A stretch of 64,000 nt of DNA from Verrucomicrobiota bacterium. GTDB lineage: Bacteria; Verrucomicrobiota; Verrucomicrobiia; Limisphaerales; UBA8199. This document shows positions 576 to 14,602 of this stretch, piece after piece. Each line of letters starts with the position of its first letter. Positions within the stretch are counted from its first letter, which is position 1. Where the stretch lies: assembly GCA_050011195.1 (NCBI GenBank), contig JBEKJO010000012.1, positions 895 through 64,894 on the forward strand, read 5' to 3'. The notes under the pieces are model-generated. The model was not told the DNA's origin and ran no database searches. It saw nothing but the letters and a program-made list of their open reading frames with translations. Made by a program: the position numbers and the translations under genes.

Positions 576-686
576 TTCTGATGTCGGGAAGGGAGGGGCG
601 AGCTGTTGGCATTGGATGTGGCCCGGCGAAATCCGGATTGGGACGCCCTGTGATCCAGGAAATTGACGAAAGGACCACATGACTGA

Positions 687-989
687 AGCAGCACAGGCCG
701 AATAGCGGAAGTCGGGCCAGGTAAGGGCAAACGCGCCCTGATGTCGGTCACGACCGGCGGCCCAGGGCCCGTCTATACGCAGGACGGCCGGAACGGAGAC
801 ATCCACGCAATCTTGCGCCCCGTCCAGGGCGGGATGCTGCGTTTCACAGGTTTCGAAGTTCTGGCGCCGAACCTGTGCTTCGGACCGGCCCGCGCGACGC
901 CGGAGCAGCGCGCGCAATGGCTCAAAGACTACGCAACCCGCCTGCACCGGATCGCGGAGGAGAAGCCGATCGATGTGGGAGAGTATTGA
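687..989 (+). pseudogene. C-terminal fragment of an NAD(P)H dehydrogenase (quinone)/flavodoxin-like-fold (NQO/MdaB-type) protein; the N-terminal half is missing
   Basis: The open frame GKRALMSVTTGGPGPVYTQDGRNGDIHAILRPVQGGMLRFTGFEVLAPNL parallels, as I recall it, the NQO1 block [49 protein letters not shown]. An in-frame stop lies at 684-686, and there is no room for the flavin-binding N-terminus after the cyclase stop at 575. Confidence 0.6.
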
Positions 990-1080
990 GACTCCCGTTG
1001 TGTCAGTACCAAGTTCGGCAACCACCGGCGAAGCATGATCGCGCGAGCTCTGGCGGTCTGGCTCATGGAAGTCACGCGCT

Positions 1081-2721: not shown

Positions 2722-2723
2722 GA

Positions 2724-2924
2724 CTACTGTCCTCCCTCCTGACGCATCGAGGCATTGAATGCCTGGCTATTGCTGGAGAGCGCGTTTTGGATCGCGGCGT
2801 CGGCCGCAGCGTGCAAGGCGGCCGCCTGACGACGCAGATCGTTAAGGCTGCTGCCGTCAGGGGTGTCGGCGGGTGGTTCGGGAGGACGGTTTGATTCGAT
2901 ATGGTTTCTTTCGAGTTGATTCAT
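2724..2924 (-). CDS. Pup/UBact-like small protein modifier (66 aa, C-terminal GGQ)
   Basis: MNQLERNHIESNRPPEPPADTPDGSSLNDLRRQAAALHAAADAAIQNALSSNSQAFNASMRQEGGQ. It is small and low-complexity with a helix-prone centre. Its C-terminus ..FNASMRQEGGQ resembles the mycobacterial Pup tail ..FVRAYVQKGGQ. It sits between two Pup-ligase-family genes, and its ATG overlaps the upstream stop (ATGA). Confidence 0.8.
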   Translation of the reverse strand: MNQLERNHIESNRPPEPPADTPDGSSLNDLRRQAAALHAAADAAIQNALSSNSQAFNASMRQEGGQ

Positions 2925-4660
2925 GGCTTTAAGTAGGAAGGTCGGTCGCAATCGGAATCAGTGCTCCAATTGGACTGAGGGTTTGTTGCCTTTGTGGTTT
3001 GGTAACTCGGCGAGAGCCAATACTGCCCGGTGGTGGAGACCGGGTCGGGGTCATGGTCGGGGGCGCCGAGCAGATCCAACGCTTCGTTCAGGTTTTGGCT
3101 ATGGTGAAACACGACCTCGGTGTCGTGCTGGGTGAAGGCCAGGGGATTGGCGAGCATGACCGTCCGTCGGATTTCAGCGCCGCCCTGCGAACGCAACTTG
3201 AACGTGATCTTGTCCCAGTCAACCTCCGCAACCGTCTCGGGATCGGCCAAGCGCAGCAGGTAGGCGCGCGTCCAAGCGCGAGTGTTGGCGGGGGGCTCCT
3301 GGGTAAATTTGCGAATTTGCTCTTCCGTCACGCCGGCGCGTTCCACGGACCCCACCTGATCGCACGCCCAGAACAACCCTTCCTCGAGATCGGCATACTT
3401 GAAATCCAGGTGCTTGATCTCGGGACTGCCCCAGTTGAGTTCCTGGTGTTGTTGCATGGCCCGCTCGAGCAACTGCAGCTTGAGGACCCAATCGAGGCGG
3501 GCCGCCAGCGCTCCGAAATCGCGACGGCTGAGTTTGTCCAGCGTATCAGCCCACAACGCCAGGATCTCACGCGCAGCGGGAACGATGCCGTCGCAACCTC
3601 CGCTGTCCACAAAGCGCGCGGCCTGGTCGAAAAAGCGCCGCTGCAGCTCAAGGGCCGTCACTTCTTCCCCCGTGAGCAGGCCGGCGCGAGCGGTGAGTGC
3701 GGGGTCCCGGCTCCAGCGGGCAACCGTCTCGACCGGGTCTTCCAGAATGAGATGGAGATTCCCATCGGTCTCACCCCGTTCGAGCAGGCTGAGCAGGATC
3801 TGCATCATGCCGGCCCGGAGAACAATGGAGGCAGGACAAAGCGTCGAATCAAAGAAGATGCTATGCAGCCGGGCAAACCGGTCAGCCGGGCACCCGCGAG
3901 CCGTGTAGCCTCCACACAGCGCTTCGTCCCGGCTGTTGACGAGCGGGCGATGGCAGGTGGTCTGGGTTCCCACCAAGCACTCGAAAAAGGAGGCTCTTTG
4001 AGACACTTCGTAGCAACCCTTACCCCCGTCCGTCGTCCTGCTCTCGGAGTTCACCTTGCCTTGCCCCGTGAGGATGATGCTGGAAACCTGAAACGAGGCC
4101 AGCATCAGCAACTGATGAAGACGACGGCGGAACAGCCGATCCCACGCCGTGCGCGTCATCTGCAAACTCATGTGCGAGCCGTAAGAATGTCCTAGCCCGT
4201 CTTCGTTATTGACGACGGCCACGAGCTTTACCTTTTCGGGCAGCCTCGCGTTGGCCGCCTGTAACGCCGATCGGGCGATCCGGAGCATGGCGTGACATGC
4301 GGCCGCAAAATCATAGGCGCTTAAGACCTCTGGGGAGCAAATTTCCAGGTGATCGAGGTCGATGTAAAGGCAGCCGCCGTTGGCCGGCAGATACTTCCTG
4401 CCCCAGTCTTGCGGATTGGTTCCAAACGGTTGGGACTGATGAGACTGGTCAAGCCAGGAACCAGAGTAGCCGGGAGTGGGTCCAGGCAAGCCTTCGACCT
4501 CACGCAAGAGCGCACGCGAGGCCATCGCCCCGGTGCCGTATTCACGTTCCAGCCCCAAGACAAAGTTGCCCAATTCCACATCGGCACCGAGAATCTTCGG
4601 CGCTGCGCCCGTGTCGCTCAGGCCCGGAGCCCTTGGTTTGGGGGATAGTTCGGTTGACAT
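2921..4660 (-). CDS. Pup-ligase/deamidase family protein, Dop-like (divergent active-site motifs)
   Basis: Family blocks present: GADVELG, NGGCLYIDLDHLEICSPE, GHSYGSHMSLQM, EVSQRASFFE, PLVNSRDEAL, FARLHSIFFDS, RLDWVLKLQLLE, PPANTRAWTRAY. A ~70-aa insert follows the first block (Dop-loop-like). The gene lies immediately upstream of the Pup-like gene, as in actinobacterial dop-pup. Confidence 0.85.
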   Translation of the reverse strand: MSTELSPKPRAPGLSDTGAAPKILGADVELGNFVLGLEREYGTGAMASRALLREVEGLPGPTPGYSGSWLDQSHQSQPFGTNPQDWGRKYLPANGGCLYIDLDHLEICSPEVLSAYDFAAACHAMLRIARSALQAANARLPEKVKLVAVVNNEDGLGHSYGSHMSLQMTRTAWDRLFRRRLHQLLMLASFQVSSIILTGQGKVNSESRTTDGGKGCYEVSQRASFFECLVGTQTTCHRPLVNSRDEALCGGYTARGCPADRFARLHSIFFDSTLCPASIVLRAGMMQILLSLLERGETDGNLHLILEDPVETVARWSRDPALTARAGLLTGEEVTALELQRRFFDQAARFVDSGGCDGIVPAAREILALWADTLDKLSRRDFGALAARLDWVLKLQLLERAMQQHQELNWGSPEIKHLDFKYADLEEGLFWACDQVGSVERAGVTEEQIRKFTQEPPANTRAWTRAYLLRLADPETVAEVDWDKITFKLRSQGGAEIRRTVMLANPLAFTQHDTEVVFHHSQNLNEALDLLGAPDHDPDPVSTTGQYWLSPSYQTTKATNPQSNWSTDSDCDRPSYLKP

Positions 4661-4672
4661 GCGAGGCTTCTG

Positions 4673-6340
4673 TTACACGGGGTCGAGGTTGAGATAGCGC
4701 CGGGCGTTGGGCACCTTGCGCACCACAGGCTCGACGCTGACGACATCGACGTCCTGCGGGAGGTCAGCGAGATAGGCATGAACGTTATTGGGCGTGAGCT
4801 GGGTGCGTAACCGTTCTATGCCTTCGATTACGGCTTGCTCCATATCGCTGGCGTTGAGACCCGGCTCGCCGCCGCGAAGTTCGCGAACGAAAGCACGACG
4901 GCAGGCGTTCTCACAGATCTGCATGAAAAACCGGCCACTGGCCAGCTCGCGCGCGCTGATCGTGCGCTCTTTGCCGTCGCGGAATCGGATGCGGCAAATA
5001 GCATTATCCGCATTGGGCGCGTAGAGGAGCGAAACGGCGGCCTCGATTATCTCGTCGCGCGTGCCCGCGGCCAATTCACCGTTTGGCGAGAAGGGCAGTG
5101 ACGGCGGCAAATGTATGTTCAGAATGGCTTTGGCAGCGCACTGGTCCGGGCGACTCACCTGGACCTCCACCGCAAACCGGGCGAGCAGAGCTGGGTCCAG
5201 CAAATCCTTGCGATTGGTGGCGGCGATAATGGCGATGTCTTTACGGTCTTCGAACCCGTCCAGTTCCGCCAGGAGCGCCGCCAGATGTTTGTCACTGTGA
5301 ATGTTGGCGAAATTTCCCCGGGTCCGGGCAATGCTTTCAAGCTCGTCCAGGAAGAGGAAGGCCACCCCGTCGCGGGCCGCCTCCCGCAAGATTTTGAAGG
5401 TGTCCCGGATAGCTTTTTGGGTCGCGCCGACATAGGGGGACTCCCAGGCCGCCGGTTTAATCACGCCGAAGCGAACCCGGCGGCCGCTCAGGCGCCCGAT
5501 GTCGCTCGCCACGATGCGAGTCATGTGGGTCTTGCCGCAACCCGGCGGCCCGACCAACAAAATGGAGTTCCGCCCGCTGAGCCGGTAGCGTCGGGCCATT
5601 TCAGGGGCCACCAGTAGCGCGCTCAACGTGGTCCGCATCGTCTCATAACTGGCATCCAGCCCCCCGAGGAGCTCCCGCGTCAGGCTCGGGACTTCCTCGA
5701 GCATGAACTCCTTTCCCTGAACGTTCTCGACCTTGTCAAAGGCCAGCCAGATGGAGCGGTCGAATCGGACCAGATCCCCGGGCTGGAGCGCAAGGCTAGC
5801 GAGAGGGTGCGCCGGTTGCAGCACGATTTCATCATCGCGGCAGTTCACAACCAAATGGCCGTCACTGGTTCGGCGGTCGAATACACCGACCTCGCCGCAC
5901 CGTGGCAGACCATCGGGGGAGACGCCGGTGATCACATTCAATTCGTGGTTGAGGAAGACTTGGTCGCCCGGGCGCAGGGACTCGACCTCCAGTTCGGGAG
6001 CGAGATTGACCACCCGCCGGGCGCCGCCCTGGTGTACGATCGCCCGCGCCCCGGCCCCGGTGGACAGCGGTCCCATGAAAACCGCTGCCACCCAGGGCGT
6101 GGCCAGAACCCTATCCAGCGTTTCTTTAAGTTTCGCTTGGAGTCGCTGGGCCTCGTGAAGCCCGATCCTGGCCAGGTCCAGGTGTTCCAGGAGGTTTCGG
6201 TCAACGAAGTCCGCCAGGTCGGCGGATTCCAGGCGCAGCGCCTTGAGTTGCGCTAGCCGCTGGTCCAGGCTGAGATCGGCCTTGAGGCAAAAGTTGACCA
6301 GTTCTGTGGCGAAAGGATCAGGGGTGGCAGGACGTTTCAT
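4673..6340 (-). CDS. AAA+ ATPase, Mpa/ARC/PAN-like unfoldase (coiled coil, OB-like domains, AAA module)
   Basis: Coiled-coil N-terminus (LDQRLAQLKALRLE...LQAKLKETLDRV). OB-like segments (GDQVFLNHELNVI; GDLVRFDRSIWLAF). Walker A GPPGCGKTH and Walker B FLFLDELES. The start is set at the internal ATG 6340; the ORF-track start 6409 would overlap the upstream gene by 92 nt. Confidence 0.85.
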   Translation of the reverse strand: MKRPATPDPFATELVNFCLKADLSLDQRLAQLKALRLESADLADFVDRNLLEHLDLARIGLHEAQRLQAKLKETLDRVLATPWVAAVFMGPLSTGAGARAIVHQGGARRVVNLAPELEVESLRPGDQVFLNHELNVITGVSPDGLPRCGEVGVFDRRTSDGHLVVNCRDDEIVLQPAHPLASLALQPGDLVRFDRSIWLAFDKVENVQGKEFMLEEVPSLTRELLGGLDASYETMRTTLSALLVAPEMARRYRLSGRNSILLVGPPGCGKTHMTRIVASDIGRLSGRRVRFGVIKPAAWESPYVGATQKAIRDTFKILREAARDGVAFLFLDELESIARTRGNFANIHSDKHLAALLAELDGFEDRKDIAIIAATNRKDLLDPALLARFAVEVQVSRPDQCAAKAILNIHLPPSLPFSPNGELAAGTRDEIIEAAVSLLYAPNADNAICRIRFRDGKERTISARELASGRFFMQICENACRRAFVRELRGGEPGLNASDMEQAVIEGIERLRTQLTPNNVHAYLADLPQDVDVVSVEPVVRKVPNARRYLNLDPV

Positions 6341-7418
6341 GAATATCAGTACCGATGATGGACGCCGCCTCGACCACCGGCAGCGGCCGGGCGGTGTCGG
6401 GTTTAACAATGTGAAAACCGCGTTGAGTAATCACCGCCCGATCCCAGCCATACATGGTTAGTTTCATACCCGAGAAGGTATTGGTGACCAGGAGGGCGAT
6501 GCAGTGGGGTTGCCAGAAGGCGACGCGATGCAAATCACAGTCCGCCCTGGAAAAGAAGGGCGTGTTGAACGGGCATTGCTCCTTGGCTTCGGGTGAGCAG
6601 TCTTTATTGCAAAAATACCGGGCTGGGTGATTGTGAAAAAATCCCACGATTTGCTCGGCACTGCGGCGCAGATCCAGCGCGGCCTGAGCGGCAGCCCAGG
6701 TGTCCGCCGTAAAGGAGAGCCGCGTGGATTCCGATAAGGTATGGCGCGCGGGGATCTGCGCGGTGACTTTCAGGAAGAGTTCCTGCGTGCTCCGATCCTG
6801 GTGCATCTGACCGATGAGCACCGCCCCGACCTCGACGTTCTTGGCTCGCTCCGTCAGCGCCAGCACCTCATCAATCACTCCTTGCGGCACGAAAACCGGG
6901 ATCAGACCGGAACCGACATCCCCAAAGGCGATGGACCGCTCGAGCTCGTCATTGATCGAGCCTGGGGTCAGTGCCGTCGGCACAGGCACGTCCTCGATCT
7001 CAAGTGGATCCGGTGCCCTGGCACCTTGATCGTCGGATGCCGGGAAAGCCAGCACAGCGTAGGTGAACAGTTCACCAGATTCCAGTTTCTTCTGGTCCAC
7101 AAGGGCGTCTCCGATCCTCATGGCGCCGGGCTTAAAGAAGCTGTTCGGAATGTCCGCCGTAATCGTGGGCATTGTGTCTGTCCGGGCGGTCACGCGCAGG
7201 CCCTCGACGTACGGCGCTCCAGCCGTGGCGTGCCAAAGGGGCTGAATATGGATTTCCGCCTCGGCGGCCGACTTCGGGTTTAACCAGCGACACAGGGCGG
7301 TGAAGCGGCCCCATTCGGCGGCGGGCACGAAGTCCAGCTTCGCCGGGAATTGGCCCAGCAACGCCCCGCTCTTGGCGCGGGACATATCGAAAAAGTAGCG
7401 GAAGGATTGACGCGGCAT
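6318..7418 (-). CDS. JAB/MPN+ (JAMM) metallopeptidase with an uncharacterised N-terminal domain
   Basis: C-terminal JAMM elements are NVEVGAVLIGQ (Glu), FFHNHP (HxH) and FFSRADCDLH (S..D). The N-terminal ~200 aa has no motif I recognise. The start is set at ATG 7418; the ORF-track start 7574 would overlap the Ubl gene by 119 nt. Confidence 0.8.
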   Translation of the reverse strand: MPRQSFRYFFDMSRAKSGALLGQFPAKLDFVPAAEWGRFTALCRWLNPKSAAEAEIHIQPLWHATAGAPYVEGLRVTARTDTMPTITADIPNSFFKPGAMRIGDALVDQKKLESGELFTYAVLAFPASDDQGARAPDPLEIEDVPVPTALTPGSINDELERSIAFGDVGSGLIPVFVPQGVIDEVLALTERAKNVEVGAVLIGQMHQDRSTQELFLKVTAQIPARHTLSESTRLSFTADTWAAAQAALDLRRSAEQIVGFFHNHPARYFCNKDCSPEAKEQCPFNTPFFSRADCDLHRVAFWQPHCIALLVTNTFSGMKLTMYGWDRAVITQRGFHIVKPDTARPLPVVEAASIIGTDIHETSCHP

Positions 7419-7455
7419 AGGAAGAGGGGCGGCGGAGACCGCCGCCCCGTGTCCT

Positions 7456-7746
7456 TCAGCGGGTGCTCCCGGCGTCCACGTTCGGGTGAAGGGTAATCTG
7501 GTCGTTTGGGACCAACACCTCGCCAACCACTTCAGAGGAGTGGGCGTGCCGACCCAGGCGGTCAACCCGCGCATGGTAAGTCAGCGCCCGCCCGACGGAA
7601 TCCTGCGACGGGAGTTGGAGTCTCGGCAGCAGGTCCTGGACGAGATCCCCCATCGTGGAATCCATCGGTACCCGCCGGGCGCGCACACGCTTTTGACCGG
7701 TCAGGTCGGTGGCCGTGATGTTGGGAACAAATAATGGCTGTATCAT
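7456..7746 (-). CDS. Ubiquitin-like (beta-grasp) protein, 96 aa
   Basis: ATDLTGQKRVRARRVPMDSTMGDLVQDLLPRLQLP parallels ubiquitin [32 protein letters not shown]. The distal QITLHPNVDAG parallels STLHLVLRLRGG. It lies within the E1/E2/JAB cluster, and its ATG overlaps the upstream stop (ATGA). Confidence 0.7.
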   Translation of the reverse strand: MIQPLFVPNITATDLTGQKRVRARRVPMDSTMGDLVQDLLPRLQLPSQDSVGRALTYHARVDRLGRHAHSSEVVGEVLVPNDQITLHPNVDAGSTR

Positions 7747-8639
7747 AATTTCCTTTCGGTTGTTTGTTGGCTATCCTCGCTGTTGCGGGGGCCACCCCGG
7801 ATCGCGAGAAAGAGTTTGGCAGCTTCTTCATGCTGCAAAATGTCAACCACGGGGGCGCAAAGATCGGCGCCGACCGAGAGCGCTTCCAGCGCAGAGCGCA
7901 ACTCCGCCGCGGAAACCGGCGCCTCGAACAGGACTTCCAGTTGAGCGGCGCCACCGCTCTCATCCTCGGCGACAATGGCCCGCGCCAGCCTAAGCCGCGC
8001 GTTGGCCGTCAATAGCAAGGCAGAAAGGCCCTCTCGGCCAGGTGTGGGCAACGAGTCCCACGAGGCGAGTTCGGTACTGACCCGCACTGTCCCGGCCTGC
8101 GCTGTGAGCGAGGCTGTGTGCGCACCCCGACGGGTGTCCAGAAGAACGGCACAACGATCAGCCCGCCGCGAAGAGCACTGCCAACCAGCCGCTTCGACCA
8201 GCTTGGCCAAGTCCGGTGGCGCCACCTCGGGGGTAACGGTAACTGGATTTTCATTAGGGTCGAGCGTCAGATGCTGGGCGGCGGCGAACGCCCGGCATGC
8301 CTGGTCGAGCCGCAGGGAAACATTGCTTTCTGCCTCGACGGGGATTTCCGCCCGGAGCGACAAGTCGCTGTCCAGATTGGAGGAGAACTTTACGAGACCC
8401 GTCAAACTGGCGTTGACTTTAAGAAGGTCCCAGCGCGAGGGAGGAGTTCCGGGGGAAAATGTCCCCGCGAGAAGGAGAAACCCATCCCTAAGCTGCACCA
8501 GCAGCGGCGGCGCCGAAGAATCCTTGGGGCGGCCCCGCCAGCGGTCCGGAGCGACCGGCTCCACGGACTCCATTGCGGCCTGCAACGCAGCCTGGCACCG
8601 ACTCGCGTCGGCTACCGTGTGAGACTCGGATGCGATCAT
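7743..8639 (-). CDS. Hypothetical protein (298 aa) with two similar halves, embedded between the E2 and Ubl genes
   Basis: A long ORF translationally coupled at both ends by ATGA overlaps. The two halves share a pattern: LLVQLRDGFLLLAG...LLKVNASLTGLVKF...LSLRAEIPVE versus CAVLLDTRRGAHTASL...LLLTANARLRLARAIV...LEVLFEAPV. I recognise no family. Confidence 0.6.
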   Translation of the reverse strand: MIASESHTVADASRCQAALQAAMESVEPVAPDRWRGRPKDSSAPPLLVQLRDGFLLLAGTFSPGTPPSRWDLLKVNASLTGLVKFSSNLDSDLSLRAEIPVEAESNVSLRLDQACRAFAAAQHLTLDPNENPVTVTPEVAPPDLAKLVEAAGWQCSSRRADRCAVLLDTRRGAHTASLTAQAGTVRVSTELASWDSLPTPGREGLSALLLTANARLRLARAIVAEDESGGAAQLEVLFEAPVSAAELRSALEALSVGADLCAPVVDILQHEEAAKLFLAIRGGPRNSEDSQQTTERKL

Positions 8640-9172
8640 GGCTCACTCGCCTCCTTAACGTCACGAACCTGTGCCAAATAATCTGGCCGTTTCAACGGCC
8701 GGGGGTCTGTGGGGAACCGGCTCTGGTTGTTGCGCGCCCAGGCACAAGCCTCTTTGTTTAAACAGTTGTCTTCCCGGGGATTGAATTTGCGGTACACGAT
8801 AATCTCGAAGATTTGGTAAAGAATATCCACCAGGCCTGTGCCGGGTTGCAACCGGCCGATGCAGATGGCCCCCGCCGGGCCAAGAATATTTGGGTGAAAG
8901 ACGTTCGTCGGACCCAGCCAGGTGAGCACTTCTGGTATCGCGGCCCGTCGAAAGAAGTCGGCGGGAAAGAAAATGCCGACAATGAACAATCCACCTTCGC
9001 CGAGGCGCCCATCGCGGTTCTGGACAACCCCTTTGCAGCGGAACTCGGCGATATATTGTTGTGGGGTCGAACCCGCTGCCGGCATCAGCCTGAGGATGTC
9101 GCTTTTCGCGGCCAGCGCCCGGCCATCGGCGAGCTGACACTCCAAAAAGTTGCTGAATGATTTATCGTTCAT
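8636..9172 (-). CDS. E2-like ubiquitin-conjugating (UBC-fold) protein
   Basis: FIVGIFFPADFF...LTWLGPTNVFHPNILGPAGAICIGRL matches the UBC signature (FP..YP-like flap, HPN triad, catalytic Cys in the ICI/ICL context). ATG 9172 is preceded by GGAG 4 nt upstream and lies 10 nt after the E1 stop. Confidence 0.8.
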   Translation of the reverse strand: MNDKSFSNFLECQLADGRALAAKSDILRLMPAAGSTPQQYIAEFRCKGVVQNRDGRLGEGGLFIVGIFFPADFFRRAAIPEVLTWLGPTNVFHPNILGPAGAICIGRLQPGTGLVDILYQIFEIIVYRKFNPREDNCLNKEACAWARNNQSRFPTDPRPLKRPDYLAQVRDVKEASEP

Positions 9173-9182
9173 GGGACTCCTT

Positions 9183-10277
9183 TTAAGAACGGCCAAGCTC
9201 GAAAAAGTTAATCTGGCGCCGCTCGCCTATGGCAATCACGTCCGCCGGTTGGAGGCCCAGCGCGGACAAAGGATGGGCCAGGTCTCCGGGCGAAAGCGCG
9301 TCGCGAGCAAGGACGTTTGCCAGGCCTGTGCCCGTCGGTGACATGCGCCGGCCACACTTGGCGCAGGCCTGCGCCGCGGCACCGAACCTACCTTTAAGCC
9401 GCAGGACTGACCGCCGCGCACCGCACGAGCAGGCGAGTTCGCGCACAAACAGTTTGCCAGGCACTTCCAAGACGCCGGCGGCCTGGGATTTCGAGTTCGA
9501 GCCGTCTGACCCCAGGGCGAAGGCCTCCGCTACGGTGATTCGCCGTGGGCTCCGGCGTAAAGTGCGGATGTTGAAAGCGCCGTGGTCCAAGCGACACGTC
9601 TCGCGCCGCTCGAGGCGCGTCACGAACAGCTTTCGCGAGAAGGCATCATAGACTAACTCGCGGTTCAGCGATGCCTGGTCGAATTGCCCTGAGAGCAGCC
9701 TGGCGAATTCCGCGGTTTGGAGGCTGGCCGCCAGCGACCCCAGGTATGCCGGCGAATTCGTGGGGGGAGGCGTAAACTCCGGCTGACAAGGATAACTCTG
9801 CTCCGAGGCGTAATCTGCACTGTTCAGGGCGCATTCGTAGCAGGGGGCCTTTTGCCCCTGGGCGAAGGTGGAAATTCGTACCAGCCAAGGCGCGCTGACG
9901 CCCGAGTCTATCCAGAAAGGGATGGCCAGCTTACGGAACGCATAGTTGGCTACCATCCGGGCGCGCTTGGAATCCAAGGCAGTCAACAGGACGTCGCAGC
10001 GAAACAATCCCAACGGCAGATTCTCGATATCGGTAACCAGATGCTCGATTTGAAGCATGGGATTGATCGCTTGCATCATTTCGGCCACAGCTTGTGCCTT
10101 GGGCCGGCCGGCGTCCGCAGGGTGCCAGGCCTGAGTCTTCGTGACCACGTCCCGGTCAATAACCCGCACGCGACCCACGTTTGGGAGCGACGCTACCAGA
10201 AGCCCAAGGAACCTGCCGATCAGGCCGGCCCCGATTTGCAGCAAGTCTATGGGTTTGGAATGGTGGATGTGATTCAT
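9183..10277 (-). CDS. E1-like ThiF/MoeB/UBA-family adenylyltransferase with a C-terminal Cys-rich extension
   Basis: Nucleotide-binding IGAGLIGRFLG, IDRDVV, ALDSKRARMVAN, a CYEC pair and YPC. The C-terminal ~110 aa carries CSC...CAKC. Its ATG overlaps the upstream stop (ATGA). Confidence 0.85.
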   Translation of the reverse strand: MNHIHHSKPIDLLQIGAGLIGRFLGLLVASLPNVGRVRVIDRDVVTKTQAWHPADAGRPKAQAVAEMMQAINPMLQIEHLVTDIENLPLGLFRCDVLLTALDSKRARMVANYAFRKLAIPFWIDSGVSAPWLVRISTFAQGQKAPCYECALNSADYASEQSYPCQPEFTPPPTNSPAYLGSLAASLQTAEFARLLSGQFDQASLNRELVYDAFSRKLFVTRLERRETCRLDHGAFNIRTLRRSPRRITVAEAFALGSDGSNSKSQAAGVLEVPGKLFVRELACSCGARRSVLRLKGRFGAAAQACAKCGRRMSPTGTGLANVLARDALSPGDLAHPLSALGLQPADVIAIGERRQINFFELGRS

Positions 10278-10819
10278 AGACCATTAGGGGACCAACGGAA
10301 GCCAATCTCCGAATCGGTTGATTGATCGCAGAGCGGGCATTGCGTCGTTCCCGGATAACGCCAGCACGGCAATTCCTCCGTTTGGTGGCACCACGCCCCG
10401 CACGCGGGACAGGCGACCGCCAGCGAACCCCGTTCGATCGGCTTTCGGCAGCGGGCACAGAAAATCTCCTGGGCCGCCCCCGGAAAGGCAACGACTTGCG
10501 GCAGACGTTCAGTGGTGAAGTACAGCCGCTGGCCGTTTCCCAGGCGAATCTCATCCCGATCTCGGAGCGTGGTCGAACCCAGCAGTGCCTTGCGACCGTT
10601 CACCCGCAGCCGGCTTTCTGGCGCCACGACCAAGAACCAATGTTCGGTAGATTCATGAACCATGCGCACGAGTAGCTCGCTGGCGATGGGGCTAGTCGGG
10701 GAGTCGGCGCGCCGGATATACGGCTCGGCGGCCGCAAAGCGGTAGGTCGAACCGCCCAGCGGCTGGACCGCCCAGCACTGTCCGCTCTCACTCGTCTTCT
10801 GGATCCAGAGATGCGCCAT
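10274..10819 (-). CDS. FHA-like domain protein with a C-terminal Cys/His-rich (RING/PHD- or double-zinc-ribbon-like) domain; candidate E3
   Basis: The FHA-like core is HWFLVVAPESRLRVNGRKALLGSTTLRDRDEIRLGNGQRLYF. The C-terminus reads CARC-x12-CPAC-x3-CH-x6-C-x8-CPLC. It is the first gene of the co-directional cluster. Confidence 0.65.
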   Translation of the reverse strand: MAHLWIQKTSESGQCWAVQPLGGSTYRFAAAEPYIRRADSPTSPIASELLVRMVHESTEHWFLVVAPESRLRVNGRKALLGSTTLRDRDEIRLGNGQRLYFTTERLPQVVAFPGAAQEIFCARCRKPIERGSLAVACPACGAWCHQTEELPCWRYPGTTQCPLCDQSTDSEIGFRWSPNGL

Positions 10820-10942: not shown

Positions 10943-11719
10943 TCAGCCTCCTCGGGAGCCTTCCTCCCCTGAACCTCCCCGCGCGCCGAGCACTGAATCA
11001 AATAAGCCGGCCCAAAACTTCTCCGGCGGTTCCGCGGCGGCGTCCAGGACTATATTGCTCACGGGAGTCGAAAGACGGTACCCCGCCAGCCTTTGCCCGG
11101 ACTCAATCAGGTTCGGATTGAATCCCCGCTCGCGCAGACGACGGCGCAGCTTGGCTACACACCGATAAATGTCCGATTCGATCGGGTAGGGCCAGCGGCC
11201 GGCCAACAAGCCACCTTCAGCGGTTAATTTGAGGATGATGTCCAGGATGGCTTTGACCGGCAGGAAAGCTGGCAACTGGTTCCTGCCGGCTTTCGACGCT
11301 GTGGCAGCGCACTTCGCCAGCCAGGCCAATATCAAAAGCAGGGTGTGCTCGCGACGGTTAAGTTTAATGGGTGGCTTGGTGTTAATCTTCAGCTCGCGAT
11401 GGTCATTTGTCCCCAACCGCCCACGAATCTCGACCACATCAATGGTGAGGTAGTCGCCGCTACGGATTTGGTCCGGCACGGGCTGGTGGGACACAGACGA
11501 GGAGAGCTGGGGGTGGGTGTCGGCCGCCTCCTTCGTGTTCGCAGGGGAAAGTTCCGGAAAACCGGCAATCAGCTCATCCGGCTTCAGGGAGGGTTTGGCT
11601 GCGGGGTCCGACGGAGCGCTCCCGCCGCGCCGGCAGATGCGTTGCAGGAGCTTGACAGCCAGGCACAGATGCCATAAAGCCAGAGCCGCGAGGGTCTTTG
11701 ATTTGCTTGTGTCAGCCAT
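10943..11719 (-). CDS. Winged-helix (OmpR/PhoB-type C-terminal effector domain) transcriptional regulator without a receiver domain
   Basis: LNRREHTLLLILAW...ESDIYRCVAKLRRRLRERGFNPNLIESGQRLAGYRLS matches the trans_reg_C pattern. ATG 11719 is preceded by GGAGGA about 8 nt upstream. Confidence 0.7.
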   Translation of the reverse strand: MADTSKSKTLAALALWHLCLAVKLLQRICRRGGSAPSDPAAKPSLKPDELIAGFPELSPANTKEAADTHPQLSSSVSHQPVPDQIRSGDYLTIDVVEIRGRLGTNDHRELKINTKPPIKLNRREHTLLLILAWLAKCAATASKAGRNQLPAFLPVKAILDIILKLTAEGGLLAGRWPYPIESDIYRCVAKLRRRLRERGFNPNLIESGQRLAGYRLSTPVSNIVLDAAAEPPEKFWAGLFDSVLGARGGSGEEGSRGG

Positions 11720-12448
11720 GAGTTTTTTCCTCCAGTGTTTTGGGTTATCTTCTCTTGCGGAACCGTGGGGGGATTTTTTTGCACAGCTCGCGCAACCCAC
11801 GACCGATCCCATTCCGCGCAGCGGCCCACTCGCCGCGTCGGAACAACAAGCACCAAGCGTGCAGAATGATTCTGCCCCAGGGGCGCTCCGCCAGCCATAG
11901 TTGCAGCAAAGCCCGCCGCCGGGGCGTAGTGGCACGCCGGTTGCCCAGAAGCGCAACCCCAGGCACACGAGCGGGGCGTCCTCGTTTCATGCTCCCTCCC
12001 CTGCGTCGCGCGCTGGCACATCACTCGCTCCCGAGCTTGACCTCAGGGTTGTTCCGCAGATGCCAGCCTGGTGCTCGTACCGCGGCGGCAAACCCCTGCA
12101 ACGGCAACAAAGCCAAACCGCGCACGATTCCAACAGAGTTGGGGAAGCACCGAACCACGGCCCAACAGCCCCAAGGACGGGGGTGGGAGCGGCTGGCGCT
12201 GGCGCGGGAGATCCCGCGCCACCGAATGGCCCCGGGTGTCGCGCAACCCACGCCGGGGCGCCACCGCGCCGGCGCACCCAGGCGCGACTCAAGGCTACTT
12301 GGCTGGAAGCGCCAGGACGGACTGACCGCGGCAGCGCGGCAACCCGATACCGACCGCCTCGCCGGTGCGCGAAGCCCGAAAGCGGACAGCATGCCGTACC
12401 GCTACGTGAAGGTGCGGCGCCTGTGGGCGGAGCTGCCGCCGTAGGCTC

Positions 12449-13161: not shown

Positions 13162-13617
13162 ATGAAAATCACGGAAGCTCTATTCGCGGAACATTTGGTG
13201 TTCCACAACATGTTCGATCACATTGAGGCGAGAGCGCCCCGCTTGAAAACGTTGGCTGAAGTCAAATCGCTGGCGGCGCTGATGGAGTCGCTGTTGAAGG
13301 CCCACTCGGACACCGAGGACGAACTGTTTATCGGGCCGCTGGAGCATTGCTTCGAGCAACTCGGCCAGCGGGACGCGTTTCTGGAGGAACACCAGGAGAT
13401 TGACGACAGCCTGAAGAACGTGCAGGAGGCGCGGCAGTTAAAGAAGGCGCGGCAACTGTTGCTGGCGGCGGTGGCCTACTCGCGCAAGCACTTCGACAAG
13501 GAGGAGCGCATTGTTTTTCCCCTCGCCGAACGCGTCCTGAAAAACAAGACGCTGACGACCCTGGGGCACACCTGGATGGAGCAAAGAGCGCGGGGCAGTT
13601 CCGAAAGCGGAGGCTAA
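13162..13617 (+). CDS. Hemerythrin-like HHE cation-binding domain protein
   Basis: Spaced His/Glu/Asp motifs: FAEHLVFHNMFDHIE, HSDTEDELF, EEHQEIDD, HFDKEERIVFP. Confidence 0.75.
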   Translation: MKITEALFAEHLVFHNMFDHIEARAPRLKTLAEVKSLAALMESLLKAHSDTEDELFIGPLEHCFEQLGQRDAFLEEHQEIDDSLKNVQEARQLKKARQLLLAAVAYSRKHFDKEERIVFPLAERVLKNKTLTTLGHTWMEQRARGSSESGG

Positions 13618-14402
13618 CAGCGTTGGGTCGCGAGGGCAGCGGTCACGCCTGCGACGAGCGCAGCCACCCGCACGGCCAACGGGAAATCGGACGGGGCTTC
13701 GAGCGTGTAGGAAAGCCGCGTTTTGTGGGTGATGAGAAAGAACGCTTCCGGCCAATCCGGACGGGAACGCGGATCGACGCTGGGGCGGATGATGCCGTTT
13801 TGGGCGGGCCGGCCTTCGATGACTTCCGCATGGTCGATCGGACACACCTCGCCAACGCGCGCGACCATCGCTTCGGCGAGCGAAGGCTGGTGGTCGGGAT
13901 TCAATTCGTACAAGTAGAATCCGCGCGCCTCCCAGTCCTCGTGGAGGCACAGGCAGAGATCGAAGCGCGGCTGCCGTCTGAGCCACGCGGCATGGGCCAC
14001 GGTCTCGTCGGCCCTAGGCGCGCGGTATTGGCGGTTGAGGTCCAGACCGTCGCGATTTTCCCGGCGGTTCAGCCCGAAGCCGGTTGGGTTCAAGCAGGGG
14101 CACAGCCAGAGGTCCAGCCCTTCCGGCCAGGCATTGTCTTGCAGCAGTTGGCGCGCCGCCAAAGGTCCGGCCGGCTCATCGCCGTGGATGCCGGTGGAAA
14201 GGTAGAGGCGCGGGGCGTGAGGCGTGTTGCGTGAGGTGTGTTGCGTGCAGGGTGTGGCGCGGCGGGTGAAGCCGAGAATGAGTTTCGGGGCCGGGTGAAT
14301 CTCTTCGATGGCCCAGCCGTGGGCTTGAGCGGCCGCGCAGCAGTCATGCAGGACGGCCTCGATTTCAATTCTCTCGCCAGCATAACCCTTGATCGCGGAC
14401 AT
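13614..14402 (-). CDS. M14-family zinc peptidase / succinylglutamate desuccinylase-aspartoacylase-like protein
   Basis: STGIHGDEPAG, CLNPTGFGLNRRENRDGLDLNRQY and CLHEDWE motifs. The start is set at the internal ATG 14402 (MSAIKGY). Confidence 0.75.
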   Translation of the reverse strand: MSAIKGYAGERIEIEAVLHDCCAAAQAHGWAIEEIHPAPKLILGFTRRATPCTQHTSRNTPHAPRLYLSTGIHGDEPAGPLAARQLLQDNAWPEGLDLWLCPCLNPTGFGLNRRENRDGLDLNRQYRAPRADETVAHAAWLRRQPRFDLCLCLHEDWEARGFYLYELNPDHQPSLAEAMVARVGEVCPIDHAEVIEGRPAQNGIIRPSVDPRSRPDWPEAFFLITHKTRLSYTLEAPSDFPLAVRVAALVAGVTAALATQRC

Positions 14403-14602
14403 GGTTGACAAATTAAGCGCTGGGCCGATTGGCGCAAGTGACGAACGGCGGCCTCCTCTCCCTCCCCTTTTCCTCCAAAGGAGGAGAGGGAGATCGAGTC
14501 GTTGACTGGTGGCAGTGTCAAGATGTGGCCGTCCCGCCGGGCGCAACCGATCCACAGTTGTGGCCGTTCAGGCTGAGGCCGCGCGCCGGACGCTGCCGCC
14601 AC

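What the first reader, a model, noticed from the sequence alone, without database searches (positions are those of the whole stretch)
10274..10819. FHA-like domain fused to a C-terminal Cys/His-rich zinc module, the RNF8/CHFR/Dma1-type FHA-RING architecture, at the head of a bacterial E1/E2 operon
The N-terminal two-thirds reads as an FHA-like beta-sandwich (..HWFLVVAPESRLRVNGRKALLGSTTLRDRDEIRLGNGQRLYF). The canonical GR and S-x-x-H phosphopeptide-binding residues look diverged (IRR; VRMVH). The C-terminus has nine potential ligands: CARC-x12-CPAC-x3-CH-x6-C-x8-CPLC. This is compatible with a cross-braced RING/PHD-like binuclear treble clef, and also with two consecutive zinc ribbons. In eukaryotes, FHA plus RING defines phospho-dependent ubiquitin ligases. 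Its ATG-proximal position and the 4-nt overlap with the E1 gene make it the best E3 candidate.
Basis: partly seen in the sequence, partly recalled or inferred. Interest (0 to 1): 0.75.

Follow-up and report, generated by a model that had tools for sequence, protein, structure and literature searches.

The report
Bacterial FHA-fold plus RING-like E3 candidate
This 181-residue bacterial protein joins a degenerate FHA-fold domain to a RING/PHD-type two-zinc finger and always heads an operon encoding a eukaryote-like ubiquitin-type cascade, which runs on into a Pup/Mpa tagging module. It is the likely target-choosing ligase (E3) of an uncharacterised bacterial protein-tagging pathway, but it is probably not a phosphopeptide reader.

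Summary
The ORF is real: 10819..10274, minus strand, 181 aa, with an ATGA overlap onto the E1 gene.

**Fold.** An AlphaFold2 model built on 96 homologues is confident (pLDDT 93.9, pTM 0.85). All 50 best PDB fold matches are FHA domains. The canonical phosphothreonine-binding residues (GR, SxxH, loop Asn) are not conserved. No Pfam FHA match was found, and no Hanks-type kinase motif lies in the window or in 58 related loci.

**Zinc module.** The C-terminus has eight conserved ligands, not nine: C121, C124, C137, C140, H145, C152, C161 and C164. This is a C4HC3 pattern. It matches Pfam Prok-RING_1 at family level and PHD/RING-H2 profiles weakly, and the model resembles viral RING domains. Cross-brace geometry could not be measured.

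**Distribution and synteny.** The family has about 1,070 clusters at 50% identity. In 50 of 53 loci the E1 gene lies directly downstream. Order: FHA-RING, E1, E2, YbjN-like, small Ubl ending in AG, JAB, Mpa-like ATPase, Dop, Pup(GGQ), PafA. It recurs in Acidobacteriota, Verrucomicrobiota and Planctomycetota.

**Verdict.** The architecture and the E3 candidacy are supported. The phospho-dependent RNF8/CHFR-type reading is not. RING-type E3s in bacterial ubiquitin-like operons were predicted computationally in 2011, so this is a member or variant of a known but biochemically untested kind.

The parts
10274..10819 (-). FHA-fold plus RING-like protein, 181 aa (whole ORF including stop)
   Evidence: ORF list. 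1,067 homologous clusters. AF2 model pLDDT 93.9, pTM 0.85.
10484..10819 (-). N-terminal FHA-fold beta-sandwich (residues ~1-112). Degenerate: the pThr-binding residues are not conserved. Conserved positions are M1-A-H-L-W5, W16, L21, W61, N74-G75, G81, L85, D87-R-D89-E90, F101 and E104.
   Evidence: All top 50 PDB Foldseek hits are FHA domains. hhalign to GarA aligns only the C-terminal half. Conservation table. No Pfam FHA hit.
10277..10471 (-). C-terminal C4HC3 binuclear zinc module (residues ~117-181). Ligands are C121, C124, C137, C140, H145, C152, C161 and C164. R123 is invariant and W153 is 95% conserved.
   Evidence: Pfam Prok-RING_1 E=0.0023 for the window protein, below the curated cut-off; 20 of 38 homologues match, best 1.6e-7. 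PHD and RING-H2 PDB profile hits. RING-type BFVD fold hits. Ligand conservation.
9183..10277 (-). E1-like adenylating enzyme (ThiF family, 364 aa); its ATG overlaps the stop of the FHA-RING gene (ATGA)
   Evidence: Pfam ThiF 2.6e-16. NCBIfam ThiF/MoeB/SAMP-E1 matches, all below cut-off. Directly downstream in 50 of 53 loci.
8636..9196 (-). E2-like UBC-fold protein (186 aa) with an HPN motif and catalytic Cys (..VFHPNILGPAGAICIG..)
   Evidence: Pfam UQ_con 4.9e-6. PDB phmmer hits are all eukaryotic E2s.
7743..8639 (-). YbjN-like protein (298 aa), a conserved operon member of unknown role
   Evidence: Pfam YbjN 1.5e-4. Conserved position in most loci.
7456..7746 (-). Candidate ubiquitin-like modifier (96 aa). 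The C-terminus is ...HPNVDAG followed by STR. Homologues end ...QPN[IV][DQ]AG plus 0-6 extra residues.
   Evidence: C-terminal alignment from 23 loci. No Pfam or PDB sequence match, so the beta-grasp fold is not shown.
6318..7574 (-). JAB/JAMM metallopeptidase with an HNH...SRAD motif. The true start is probably downstream of 7456, because the 5' part of the ORF overlaps the Ubl gene.
   Evidence: Pfam Prok-JAB 1.9e-4 and JAB 0.016. tblastn matches begin near residue 50.
4673..6409 (-). Mpa/ARC-like proteasomal-type AAA ATPase with OB domains
   Evidence: Pfam AAA 9e-27 and Prot_ATP_ID_OB_C/N. NCBIfam pup_AAA 4.9e-75, 253 bits, below the equivalog cut-off.
2921..4660 (-). Pup-ligase family protein, Dop-like (deamidase/depupylase)
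   Evidence: Pfam Pup_ligase 1.8e-82. NCBIfam best hit is Dop at 234 bits, against PafA at 190.
2724..2951 (-). Pup-like small ORF ending ...SMRQEGGQ*
   Evidence: ORF list. A G-[EQ] C-terminus defines Pup (PMC2588565). No HMM hit.
1081..2721 (-). Pup-ligase family protein, PafA-like
   Evidence: Pfam Pup_ligase 1.9e-77. NCBIfam best hit is PafA at 214.7 bits, against Dop at 205.
10943..11968 (-). Upstream gene on the same strand (341-aa ORF; the conserved part is the C-terminal ~120 aa), possibly a winged-helix regulator
   Evidence: Weak Pfam Trans_reg_C/RecX_HTH1 matches. A homologous gene lies upstream of the FHA-RING gene in many loci. Pairwise E=0.003 to the L003 copy.

Best explanation
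The protein is the E3-type specificity subunit of a bacterial ubiquitin-like conjugation cassette.

**Shown**
- It has an FHA-fold N-terminal domain and a C-terminal eight-ligand (C4HC3) RING/PHD-type zinc module. The two are predicted to pack as one rigid unit.
- It is encoded immediately upstream of a ThiF-type E1 and is often translationally coupled to it.
- The E1 is followed by a UBC-type E2 (HPN and Cys), a YbjN-like protein, a small protein ending in Ala-Gly, and a JAB peptidase.

**Inferred mechanism**
1. JAB trims the Ubl tail (STR here) to expose the terminal Gly.
2. E1 adenylates the Ubl and forms a thioester with it.
3. The Ubl passes to the E2 cysteine.
4. The zinc module docks E2~Ubl, with the conserved W153 in the place of the E2-contacting Trp of RING-H2 domains.
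5. The FHA-fold domain, which has lost the phosphothreonine pocket, holds the target or an adaptor through phospho-independent protein contacts. The Ubl is then discharged onto a target lysine. JAB reverses the mark.

**Link to pupylation (inferred)**
The cassette is contiguous, on the same strand, with an Mpa-like unfoldase, Dop, Pup-GGQ and PafA. The two tagging systems therefore probably act on a common process. Either Ubl-marked proteins are delivered to the Mpa-type ATPase, or one system regulates the other.
For: - **Fold.** AF2 with 96 homologues gives pLDDT 93.9 and pTM 0.85. All 50 best PDB Foldseek hits are FHA domains, for example Slr1951 at 3.3e-5, then Dun1, OdhI, Ki67, GarA and Chk2.
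- **RING-type fold hits.** BFVD hits after the first FHA hit are mostly RING-type or RING-H2 proteins: 63-79 columns, rmsd 2.8-4.5 A, probability 0.9-0.98.
- **Zinc module.** Eight ligands are at least 97% conserved and C144 is not. Pfam Prok-RING_1 is the best hit for the window protein and matches 20 of 38 members, best 1.6e-7. PDB profile hits are TAF3 and Pygopus PHD fingers and the EL5, Arkadia and RNF126 RING-H2 domains. C121/C124 align to C1/C2, C161/C164 to C7/C8, and W153 to the EL5 Trp.
- **Context.** E1 is directly downstream in 50 of 53 loci. In 18 of 20 long loci E1 and E2 are detected together with the JAB, AAA and two Pup-ligase genes. The loci come from Acidobacteriota, Verrucomicrobiota and Planctomycetota.
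- **Other components.** The E2 matches eukaryotic E2s. The Ubl candidates end in AG, with or without a short tail. A JAMM motif is present.
- **Precedent.** The archaeal small RING protein srfp is required for substrate ubiquitylation with its operon's E1 and E2 in vitro (PMC5654768). RING-type E3s in bacterial operons were predicted earlier (Burroughs et al. 2011, as cited in PMC10557695).
Against: - No biochemical evidence exists for this family.
- The window protein's own Prok-RING_1 score (18.3 bits) is below Pfam's cut-off (29.1).
- PDB and BFVD matches of the zinc module are individually non-significant (E 0.0035 to 1), and the best sequence-profile hits are PHD fingers, which are readers rather than ligases.
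- Three residues were shown to matter in archaeal srfp: I30, W58 and the linchpin R69. Only the Trp has a counterpart here. By motif position, the place after the first Cys pair holds an invariant Arg (R123), and no conserved Lys/Arg follows C164.
- Cross-brace geometry was not measured.
- Two Phycisphaerae loci keep FHA-RING, YbjN-like, JAB, Mpa, Dop and PafA but have no E1, E2 or Ubl within 10 kb.
- The Ubl candidate has no detectable similarity to known Ubls.
Confidence: 0.6

Rival explanations
1. The zinc module is a PHD-like or other non-catalytic binding finger. On this reading the protein is a scaffold or adaptor, for example tethering E1, the Ubl, the YbjN-like protein or the Mpa-like ATPase, and it does not activate the E2~Ubl thioester.
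For: - The best PDB profile matches are PHD fingers (TAF3 at 0.0035, then Pygopus and EBS), with the PHD-like signature C-x2-C...C-x2-C-x-W-x-H.
- C4HC3 is the PHD/RINGv ligand order.
- The hydrophobic residue after the first Cys pair and the linchpin Arg of active RINGs are absent.
- The gene overlaps E1, not E2.
Against: - Pfam's best family is Prok-RING_1, not PHD.
- RING-H2 domains align across the whole module, including W153.
- BFVD fold hits are RING E3s.
- The operon has no other E3 candidate, and a review states that prokaryotic RINGs are C4HC3 (PMC11354881).
Confidence: 0.2
2. One reading: a phospho-dependent ligase of the RNF8/CHFR/Dma1 type. The FHA domain reads a phosphothreonine mark written by a Ser/Thr kinase, and the RING then ubiquitylates the phosphoprotein.
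For: - The domain order, FHA then RING, is the same as in RNF8/CHFR.
- FHA domains in bacteria commonly pair with Hanks kinases (established knowledge). GarA and OdhI are among the fold hits.
Against: - No position between residues 22 and 60, where the GR and SxxH motifs lie, is at least 70% conserved except L50.
- The pThr-contacting Asn of 'SLNGT' aligns to a variable stretch (APESR). The conserved N74 is the structural 'vNG' Asn.
- No Pfam FHA hit was found in 31 members at E<=10.
- The predicted loops there have the lowest confidence in the model (block means 87 and 80).
- No HRDLKxxN-type kinase motif occurs in the window or in the 58 loci.
Confidence: 0.07
3. The protein works mainly with the Pup/Mpa module, for example as a regulator or adaptor of Mpa, Dop or PafA or of pupylated proteins. 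Its link to E1/E2 is secondary.
For: - All 20 loci with at least 9.3 kb downstream carry JAB, the Mpa-like AAA ATPase and both Pup-ligase paralogues.
- The Phycisphaerae variant (L015, L051) keeps FHA-RING, YbjN-like, JAB, Mpa, Dop and PafA without E1, E2 or Ubl nearby.
Against: - Adjacency to E1 holds in 50 of 53 loci and often involves overlapping or nearly abutting genes.
- Pupylation needs no RING in any studied system (PMC2588565, and established knowledge).
- E1, E2 and Ubl may simply lie elsewhere in the Phycisphaerae genome.
Confidence: 0.1
4. The C-terminus is two consecutive zinc ribbons (DZR-like), with a nucleic-acid-binding or structural role and no E2-binding surface.
For: Weak Pfam DZR and Zn_ribbon matches for the window protein (E 0.077-0.64). 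One of 38 members hits DZR at 0.0053.
Against: - Prok-RING_1 matches 20 of 38 members.
- The model has a single beta-hairpin in the module (133-136 and 143-145), and its fold hits are RING-type proteins.
- The H145/C152 pair sits between two CxxC knuckles, as in interleaved binuclear fingers.
Confidence: 0.03

Closest known systems
Pfam PF14446 Prok-RING_1, and the predicted RING-type E3s of prokaryotic E1/E2/Ubl/JAB operons (Burroughs, Iyer and Aravind 2011, Mol Biosyst; not readable here, cited via PMC10557695 and PMC11354881)
   Same: - The zinc module is the best Pfam match, and 20 of 38 family members match it.
- The ligand order is C4HC3, as reported for prokaryotic RINGs (PMC11354881).
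- The gene neighbourhood holds E1, E2, Ubl and JAB.
   Different: - The window protein scores below the curated cut-off.
- The N-terminal FHA-fold domain is invisible to sequence models. I could not verify whether it, or the fusion of the operon with the Pup/Mpa module, was described in that paper.
- The family has never been tested experimentally.
Caldiarchaeum subterraneum small RING finger protein (srfp), the E3 of the archaeal Ub/E1/E2/Rpn11 operon (PMC5654768)
   Same: - A small RING-type protein encoded in an operon with E1, E2, Ubl and a JAMM peptidase.
- It has a conserved Trp in the E2-facing position.
- It provides the functional precedent that such a protein is needed for substrate modification in vitro.
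   Different: - srfp is a stand-alone RING-H2 (C3H2C3) with a hydrophobic I30 and a linchpin R69. This protein is C4HC3, has the invariant R123 at the I30-type position, and has no conserved basic residue after the last Cys.
- This protein carries an FHA-fold domain.
- This operon additionally contains YbjN-like, Mpa, Dop, Pup and PafA genes.
Eukaryotic FHA-RING ubiquitin ligases (RNF8, CHFR, Dma1)
   Same: The domain order is the same, with an N-terminal FHA fold and a C-terminal RING-type finger. The presumed role is as an adaptor E3 for a UBC-type E2.
   Different: - Those FHA domains bind phosphothreonine through the conserved Arg, Ser, His and Asn. Here these positions are not conserved and no kinase is linked.
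- None of RNF8, CHFR or Dma1 was among the 50 best fold hits.
- The similarity is best read as convergent architecture, not orthology.
Degenerate, phospho-independent FHA-fold domains, such as the N-terminal FHA-like domains of the type VII secretion ATPase EssC (PDB 5fwh)
   Same: EssC is the only PDB sequence-profile match of the N-terminal domain (E 0.08-0.12, aligned over ...W-x-l...vNG...L.d.D...). It has an FHA fold without a canonical pThr pocket (the latter point from my own knowledge).
   Different: The match is not statistically significant, and the context (secretion ATPase) is unrelated.
Actinobacterial Pup-proteasome system (Mpa, Dop, Pup, PafA) and its sporadic relatives outside actinobacteria, e.g. 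in verrucomicrobia and planctomycetes (PMC2588565)
   Same: - The downstream half of the cluster has the Mpa-Dop-Pup-PafA gene order.
- A small ORF ends in GGQ, and two Pup-ligase paralogues flank it.
   Different: - All components score below the NCBIfam equivalog cut-offs.
- No 20S proteasome genes were seen next to the cluster. The whole window was not scanned.
- The module is fused to a complete Ubl cascade, which is not part of the studied actinobacterial systems.
Experimentally studied bacterial Ubl-conjugation operons (Bil, Bub, type II CBASS Cap2/Cap3)
   Same: These are bacterial operons with E1, E2, Ubl and a peptidase (PMC10557695, PMC11601603).
   Different: - Those systems have no RING-type E3.
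- PADLOC defence models give no meaningful hit to any protein of this operon; the only matches are E1 at 0.0021 and JAB at 3.3e-4.
- Nothing here shows a defence role.

Membership tests
FHA domain (Pfam PF00498; phosphothreonine-binding module) | Eleven-stranded beta-sandwich FHA fold | tested here: met
   The AF2 model (pLDDT 93.9) has 10 strands in residues 3-111. All 50 best PDB Foldseek hits are FHA domains, with E down to 3.3e-5 and target-normalised TM mostly 0.4-0.7.
FHA domain (Pfam PF00498; phosphothreonine-binding module) | Conserved pThr-binding residues: Gly-Arg (beta3-beta4 loop), Ser-x-x-His (beta4-beta5 loop) and Asn (beta6-beta7 loop) | tested here: not met
   In 96 homologues no position in residues 22-60 except L50 reaches 70% conservation. 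The GarA 'SLNGT' Asn aligns to the variable APESR stretch.
FHA domain (Pfam PF00498; phosphothreonine-binding module) | Significant match to the family's sequence model | tested here: not met
   None of 31 N-terminal domains hits any FHA-type Pfam family at E<=10. hhalign to GarA covers only the C-terminal half, with probability 6.6%.
FHA domain (Pfam PF00498; phosphothreonine-binding module) | Binding of phosphothreonine peptides | not testable with these tools
   This needs peptide-binding assays.
RING finger / Prok-RING_1 (PF14446), binuclear treble clef | Eight conserved Cys/His ligands with RING/PHD-type spacing | tested here: met
   C-x2-C-x12-C-x2-C-x4-H-x6-C-x8-C-x2-C, with each ligand at least 97% conserved in 96 sequences.
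RING finger / Prok-RING_1 (PF14446), binuclear treble clef | Match to the family model above the curated cut-off | tested here: inconclusive
   The window protein scores 18.3 bits against a cut-off of 29.1. Of 38 homologues, 20 match at E<=0.01, best 1.6e-7. Fourteen of the 74 homologues carry a precomputed PF14446 annotation.
RING finger / Prok-RING_1 (PF14446), binuclear treble clef | Cross-brace (interleaved) coordination of two Zn ions | tested here: inconclusive
Indirect support comes from BFVD fold hits to RING-type proteins (rmsd ~3-4 A over ~65 columns, E 0.2-1). An analysis of ligand co-loss was uninformative.
RING finger / Prok-RING_1 (PF14446), binuclear treble clef | E2-binding surface: a hydrophobic residue after the first Cys pair, a Trp near ligand 6, Pro in C-P-x-C, and a basic linchpin after the last Cys | tested here: inconclusive
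   W153 (95% conserved) aligns with the EL5 Trp, and C161-P-L-C164 is present in the window protein. However, R123 replaces the hydrophobic residue, and no conserved Lys/Arg follows C164.
RING finger / Prok-RING_1 (PF14446), binuclear treble clef | Gene-neighbourhood association with E1, E2, Ubl and JAB | tested here: met
   E1 is directly downstream in 50 of 53 loci. E2, Ubl and JAB follow in nearly all loci that are long enough.
RING finger / Prok-RING_1 (PF14446), binuclear treble clef | E3 activity (stimulates E2~Ubl discharge) | not testable with these tools
   This needs reconstitution with the operon's E1, E2 and Ubl.
Double zinc ribbon (PF12773 DZR) | Two sequential four-ligand zinc ribbons; match to the model | tested here: not met
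   The window protein scores E=0.077, 13.6 bits, against a cut-off of 27.3. Only 1 of 38 members matches at E<=0.01. No fold hit is named as a zinc ribbon.
Known anti-phage Ubl systems (Bil, CBASS Cap2/Cap3) in PADLOC | Match of the operon's proteins to defence-system models | tested here: not met
   The FHA-RING protein has no hit. E1 (0.0021) and JAB (3.3e-4) give only marginal generic hits.

The most novel reading that the evidence does not exclude
The FHA-RING protein is the specificity factor of a dual-tag pathway in Gram-negative soil and freshwater bacteria. In this pathway a eukaryote-like cascade (E1, E2, RING E3, Ubl and an Rpn11-type JAB) is mechanistically coupled to an Mpa-type unfoldase and to pupylation. 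For example, Ubl-marked proteins might be recognised and unfolded by the Mpa-like ATPase, or the Ubl system might modify the Pup machinery or pupylated substrates. That would be a bacterial counterpart of ubiquitin-to-proteasomal-ATPase coupling. The phospho-independent FHA fold would serve as the substrate receptor.
Probability: 0.22. Interest if true: 0.85.

Novelty: new member of a known kind. Interest (0 to 1): 0.55.

Why it matters
- **An untested class.** Complete E1/E2/RING-E3/Ubl/DUB cascades in bacteria have been predicted since 2011, but none has been tested. The bacterial Ubl operon families named as characterised in PMC11601603 (type II CBASS, Bil) include no RING-type E3.
- **A concrete target.** This family is large (about 1,070 clusters at 50% identity), compact (181 aa) and confidently modelled. 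Its operon partners are clear, so it is a practical target for reconstitution.
- **Two questions it could address.** First, how a RING-type adaptor with a non-canonical E2-facing surface (invariant Arg, no linchpin) works. Second, why a ubiquitin-type cascade is kept in one operon with an Mpa-type unfoldase and the unrelated Pup tagging system across three phyla. The second bears on how ubiquitin tagging became coupled to proteasomal ATPases.
- **A caution for annotation.** An FHA fold here should not be read as evidence of phospho-signalling.

Tried and rejected
1. **Single-sequence AF2** gave an unusable model (pLDDT 40.1).
2. An alignment of homologues from the representative search (A5) was accepted.
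3. Synteny was obtained from the search for related loci plus my own tblastn instead.
4. **Over-diverse alignments.** The search for related loci rejected alignments A1 and A2 as too diverse. A five-sequence alignment worked.
5. **Sequence-level detection of FHA.** Pfam on 31 N-terminal domains at E<=10 found no FHA hit. The PDB profile search gave only EssC at E~0.1 and a spurious ThreeFoil repeat match.
6. **Cross-brace test by ligand co-loss.** Only isolated single changes or alignment shifts were found, so the test was uninformative.
7. **No coordinates.** The model's coordinates are not exposed, so zinc-site distances could not be measured.
8. **Ubl candidate.** A profile of 16 sequences gave no meaningful PDB or Pfam match.
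9. **Primary paper unavailable.** The paper on prokaryotic RINGs (PMC5938088, PMID 21547297) and the related review (PMC5881585) are not held. Four full-text searches found no paper describing an FHA-RING fusion or a combined Ubl plus Pup operon. I therefore cannot say whether these two points were reported.
10. **Search considered and dropped.** A further 5.8-billion-protein search with the zinc module alone would have been swamped by the same family.
11. **Rejected readings.** A defence-system assignment (PADLOC negative) and a kinase-linked FHA reading.


Full report
**1. The observation**

The ORF at 10819..10274 on the minus strand starts at ATG, encodes 181 aa and has the quoted sequence. 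Its stop codon overlaps the start codon of the next gene in an ATGA arrangement: the plus strand at 10274-10277 reads tcat.

The next gene is a ThiF-family E1 (Pfam 2.6e-16). It is followed by a UBC-type E2 (UQ_con 4.9e-6), in which the HPN motif and the catalytic Cys are visible. PDB sequence matches of the E2 are all eukaryotic E2s.

The Cys/His string is present as described. It is not a chance ORF. phmmer against 1.84 billion cluster representatives finds 1,067 clusters at E<=1e-3 and 800 at E<=1e-10. Nearly all of the 150 best listed are 160-200 aa and match end to end.

**2. N-terminal domain**

Sequence models do not recognise it. No Pfam FHA-type family is hit by any of 31 N-terminal domains, even at E<=10. 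The only PDB profile match of that kind is the FHA-like region of EssC, at E about 0.1.

Structure prediction settles the fold.
- With 96 homologues as the alignment, AlphaFold2 gives pLDDT 93.9 and pTM 0.85, with ten strands between residues 3 and 111.
- The single-sequence model was useless (pLDDT 40).
- All 50 best PDB Foldseek matches are FHA domains: Slr1951 at 3.3e-5, then Dun1, OdhI, KIF1A, Ki67, GarA, Chk2, EmbR and others.
- The best BFVD match is a phage FHA protein.

The phosphothreonine pocket is not preserved.
- hhalign of the family against it aligns only the C-terminal half. N74 corresponds to the structural Asn of 'vNG' and D89 to the 'GD' Asp.
- The pThr-contacting Asn of 'SLNGT' falls on a variable stretch (APESR in the window protein).
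- Across 96 homologues, no position between residues 22 and 60 except L50 reaches 70% conservation. This is where the Gly-Arg and Ser-x-x-His motifs should lie. It is also the least confident part of the model, with block means of 87 and 80.
- A regular-expression scan for the Hanks kinase catalytic loop found nothing in the 64-kb window or in the 58 related loci.

The domain is therefore an FHA fold used, most likely, for phospho-independent protein contacts. What is conserved is the N-terminus M-A-H-L-W, together with W16, L21, W61, N74-G75, G81, L85, D87-R-D89-E90, F101 and E104. Part of this probably forms the interface with the zinc module, since a pTM of 0.85 implies a fixed two-domain arrangement. 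That last point is an inference.

**3. C-terminal module**

Eight ligands are conserved at 97% or more: C121, C124, C137, C140, H145, C152, C161 and C164. C144 is Cys in only 6% of sequences. The pattern C-x2-C-x12-C-x2-C-x4-H-x6-C-x8-C-x2-C is C4HC3. A review reports this ligand order for prokaryotic RING domains (PMC11354881).

Family and fold evidence:
- Pfam's best family for the window protein is Prok-RING_1, at E 0.0023 and 18.3 bits, below the 29.1-bit cut-off.
- Twenty of 38 homologues match Prok-RING_1, best 1.6e-7. DZR matches one.
- Profile searches of the PDB return PHD fingers (TAF3 at 0.0035, Pygopus, EBS) for the first half of the module.
- They return RING-H2 domains (EL5, Arkadia, RNF126) across the whole module.
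- In the EL5 alignment, C121/C124 align with C1/C2, C161/C164 with C7/C8, and W153 (95% conserved) with the EL5 Trp.
- After the FHA hit, the BFVD fold matches are mostly RING-type E3s: 63-79 columns, rmsd 2.8-4.5 A, probability 0.9-0.98, E 0.2-1.

Each piece is weak because the domain is small, but together they point to a RING/PHD-type binuclear finger rather than two zinc ribbons. I could not measure the zinc geometry because coordinates are not exposed. A ligand co-loss test was uninformative.

Two features differ from active RINGs that have been characterised. By motif position, the place after the first Cys pair holds an invariant Arg (R123) instead of a hydrophobic residue. No conserved basic 'linchpin' follows C164. 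In the archaeal srfp E3 the corresponding I30, W58 and R69 all matter (PMC5654768).

**4. Context**

I collected 17 loci from species-representative genomes and 41 from metagenomes and mapped the window's proteins onto them with tblastn.
- In 50 of 53 loci with at least 400 nt downstream, the E1 gene follows directly on the same strand.
- In the 20 loci with at least 9.3 kb downstream, all carry the JAB, the AAA ATPase and two Pup-ligase paralogues. Eighteen carry E1 and E2.
- The conserved order is FHA-RING, E1, E2, YbjN-like, a roughly 90-aa protein, JAB, Mpa-like ATPase, Dop-like, a small ORF, PafA-like.
- Named sources are Solibacteraceae, Blastocatellia, Acidobacteriaceae, Chthoniobacteraceae, Opitutaceae, Pedosphaera, Planctomycetia, Phycisphaerae and one bin labelled Bacteroidaceae.

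The small protein at 7746..7456 ends ...HPNVDAG-STR. Its homologues end ...QPN[IV][DQ]AG with 0-6 further residues, and five stop exactly at AG. This is the behaviour of a Ubl precursor trimmed by the neighbouring JAMM peptidase. Its fold is not shown, because there is no Pfam or PDB match.

Downstream components:
- The ATPase has proteasomal OB domains, and its best NCBIfam match is pup_AAA at 4.9e-75.
- The two 550-580-aa proteins are Pup-ligase family members (1.8e-82 and 1.9e-77). The first scores best as Dop and the second as PafA.
- The ORF between them ends ...QEGGQ. This is the Pup signature (PMC2588565).

No 20S proteasome gene was seen at the flanks, but the whole window was not scanned. 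PADLOC gives no defence-system assignment.

**5. Exceptions**

- Two identical-looking Phycisphaerae loci (L015, L051) have FHA-RING directly followed by YbjN-like, JAB, Mpa, Dop and PafA. They have no E1, E2 or Ubl within 10 kb.
- A Blastocatellia locus (L003) has FHA-RING and E1 followed by a DUF4062-STAND NTPase and a WD40 protein. Similar STAND or WD40 genes lie near the cluster in several other loci.

**6. Mechanism**

The best-supported reading is that the protein is the E3-type adaptor of the Ubl cascade. The zinc module docks E2~Ubl. The FHA fold holds the target or an adaptor. JAB processes the Ubl and reverses the mark.

The unbroken, conserved continuation into Mpa, Dop, Pup and PafA suggests that the Ubl cascade and pupylation serve one process. 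The domain folds, the ligand conservation and the synteny are shown. E2 binding, catalysis, target choice and any coupling to Mpa or Pup are inferred.

The rivals, with my estimates of likelihood, are:
- a non-catalytic PHD-like scaffold (about 0.2);
- a primary role with the Pup/Mpa module (about 0.1);
- a true phospho-reader ligase (about 0.07);
- tandem zinc ribbons (about 0.03).

**7. Comparison with what is known, and novelty**

RING-type E3s in sparse bacterial E1/E2/Ubl/JAB operons were predicted by Burroughs, Iyer and Aravind in 2011. That work is the source of the Prok-RING Pfam families (from my own knowledge). [quoted passage not shown] I could not read that paper. My literature searches found no description of the FHA fusion or of the combined Ubl and Pup operon, so I cannot say whether these are new.

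The closest experimentally characterised relative is the archaeal srfp E3. The resemblance to RNF8, CHFR and Dma1 is one of architecture only.

I file the finding as a new member of a known, computationally predicted kind. Two features are possibly unreported: a cryptic FHA fold, and the linkage to pupylation. Interest is moderate. The system is a ready target for reconstitution and bears on how ubiquitin-type tagging came to be coupled to proteasomal ATPases.

Noticed in passing
window 1081-6409 (minus strand): The Ubl operon runs straight on into a pupylation module. It comprises an Mpa/ARC-like AAA ATPase with proteasomal OB domains (6409..4673), a Dop-like protein (4660..2921), a 75-aa ORF ending ...QEGGQ (2951..2724, Pup-like) and a PafA-like protein (2721..1081). 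The whole order is conserved across three phyla. No 20S proteasome genes were seen at the flanks.
   Followed up: partly
L015 9674-18440 and L051 (Phycisphaerae): A variant cluster in which FHA-RING is followed directly by YbjN-like, JAB, Mpa, Dop and PafA. No E1, E2 or Ubl is detectable within 10 kb on either side. The zinc ligands and the Trp are retained, and there is an insertion between ligands 6 and 7 (..CWTGYVDEGRPFATC..).
   Followed up: partly
L003 11662-18210 (Blastocatellia); also L002, L007, L008, L030, L031 upstream regions: In L003, a DUF4062-STAND (NACHT-like) NTPase and a large WD40 protein follow E1 in place of E2. Homologous STAND or WD40 genes lie within a few kb of the cluster in several Acidobacteriota and Verrucomicrobiota loci. 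None is present in the window.
   Followed up: partly
window 10943-11968 (minus strand): An upstream gene on the same strand whose C-terminal ~120 aa resemble an OmpR-type winged helix (weak Trans_reg_C and RecX_HTH1 matches). A homologous gene sits just upstream of the FHA-RING gene in more than 20 loci. It may be the cluster's regulator.
   Followed up: partly
window 10805-10819 (residues 1-5 of the protein): The extreme N-terminus M-A-H-L-W is conserved at 73-97% across 96 homologues. This is unusually high for a first beta-strand, and no explanation was tested.
   Followed up: no
window 7456-7746 (minus strand): The presumed Ubl has no detectable sequence similarity to ubiquitin, ThiS/MoaD, Prok_Ub or any PDB chain, although it has the conserved ...QPN[IV][DQ]AG C-terminus. 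Its fold remains to be shown.
   Followed up: yes
window 6318-7574 and 4673-6409 (minus strand): The longest ORFs for JAB and for the AAA ATPase overlap the preceding genes by 119 nt and 92 nt. tblastn matches start near residues 50 and 25-45 respectively. The real start codons are therefore probably further downstream than the first in-frame start.
   Followed up: partly
window 7743-8639 (minus strand): A 298-aa YbjN-like protein (Pfam YbjN 1.5e-4) is a fixed member of the cluster between E2 and the Ubl. Its role is unknown; it may be an adaptor or chaperone.
   Followed up: no
L035 19593-20519, L053 11811-12713, L056 11588-12529: In some loci a further AAA-type ATPase gene follows PafA; it is cut off by the end of the locus. 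There is no counterpart in the window, where an unannotated 202-aa ORF (1097..489) follows.
   Followed up: no
window 13162-14555: A hemerythrin-domain protein (13162-13617, plus strand) and an AstE/AspA or M14-like carboxypeptidase-fold protein (14555..13614, minus strand) lie upstream of the cluster. They were not checked in the related loci.
   Followed up: no
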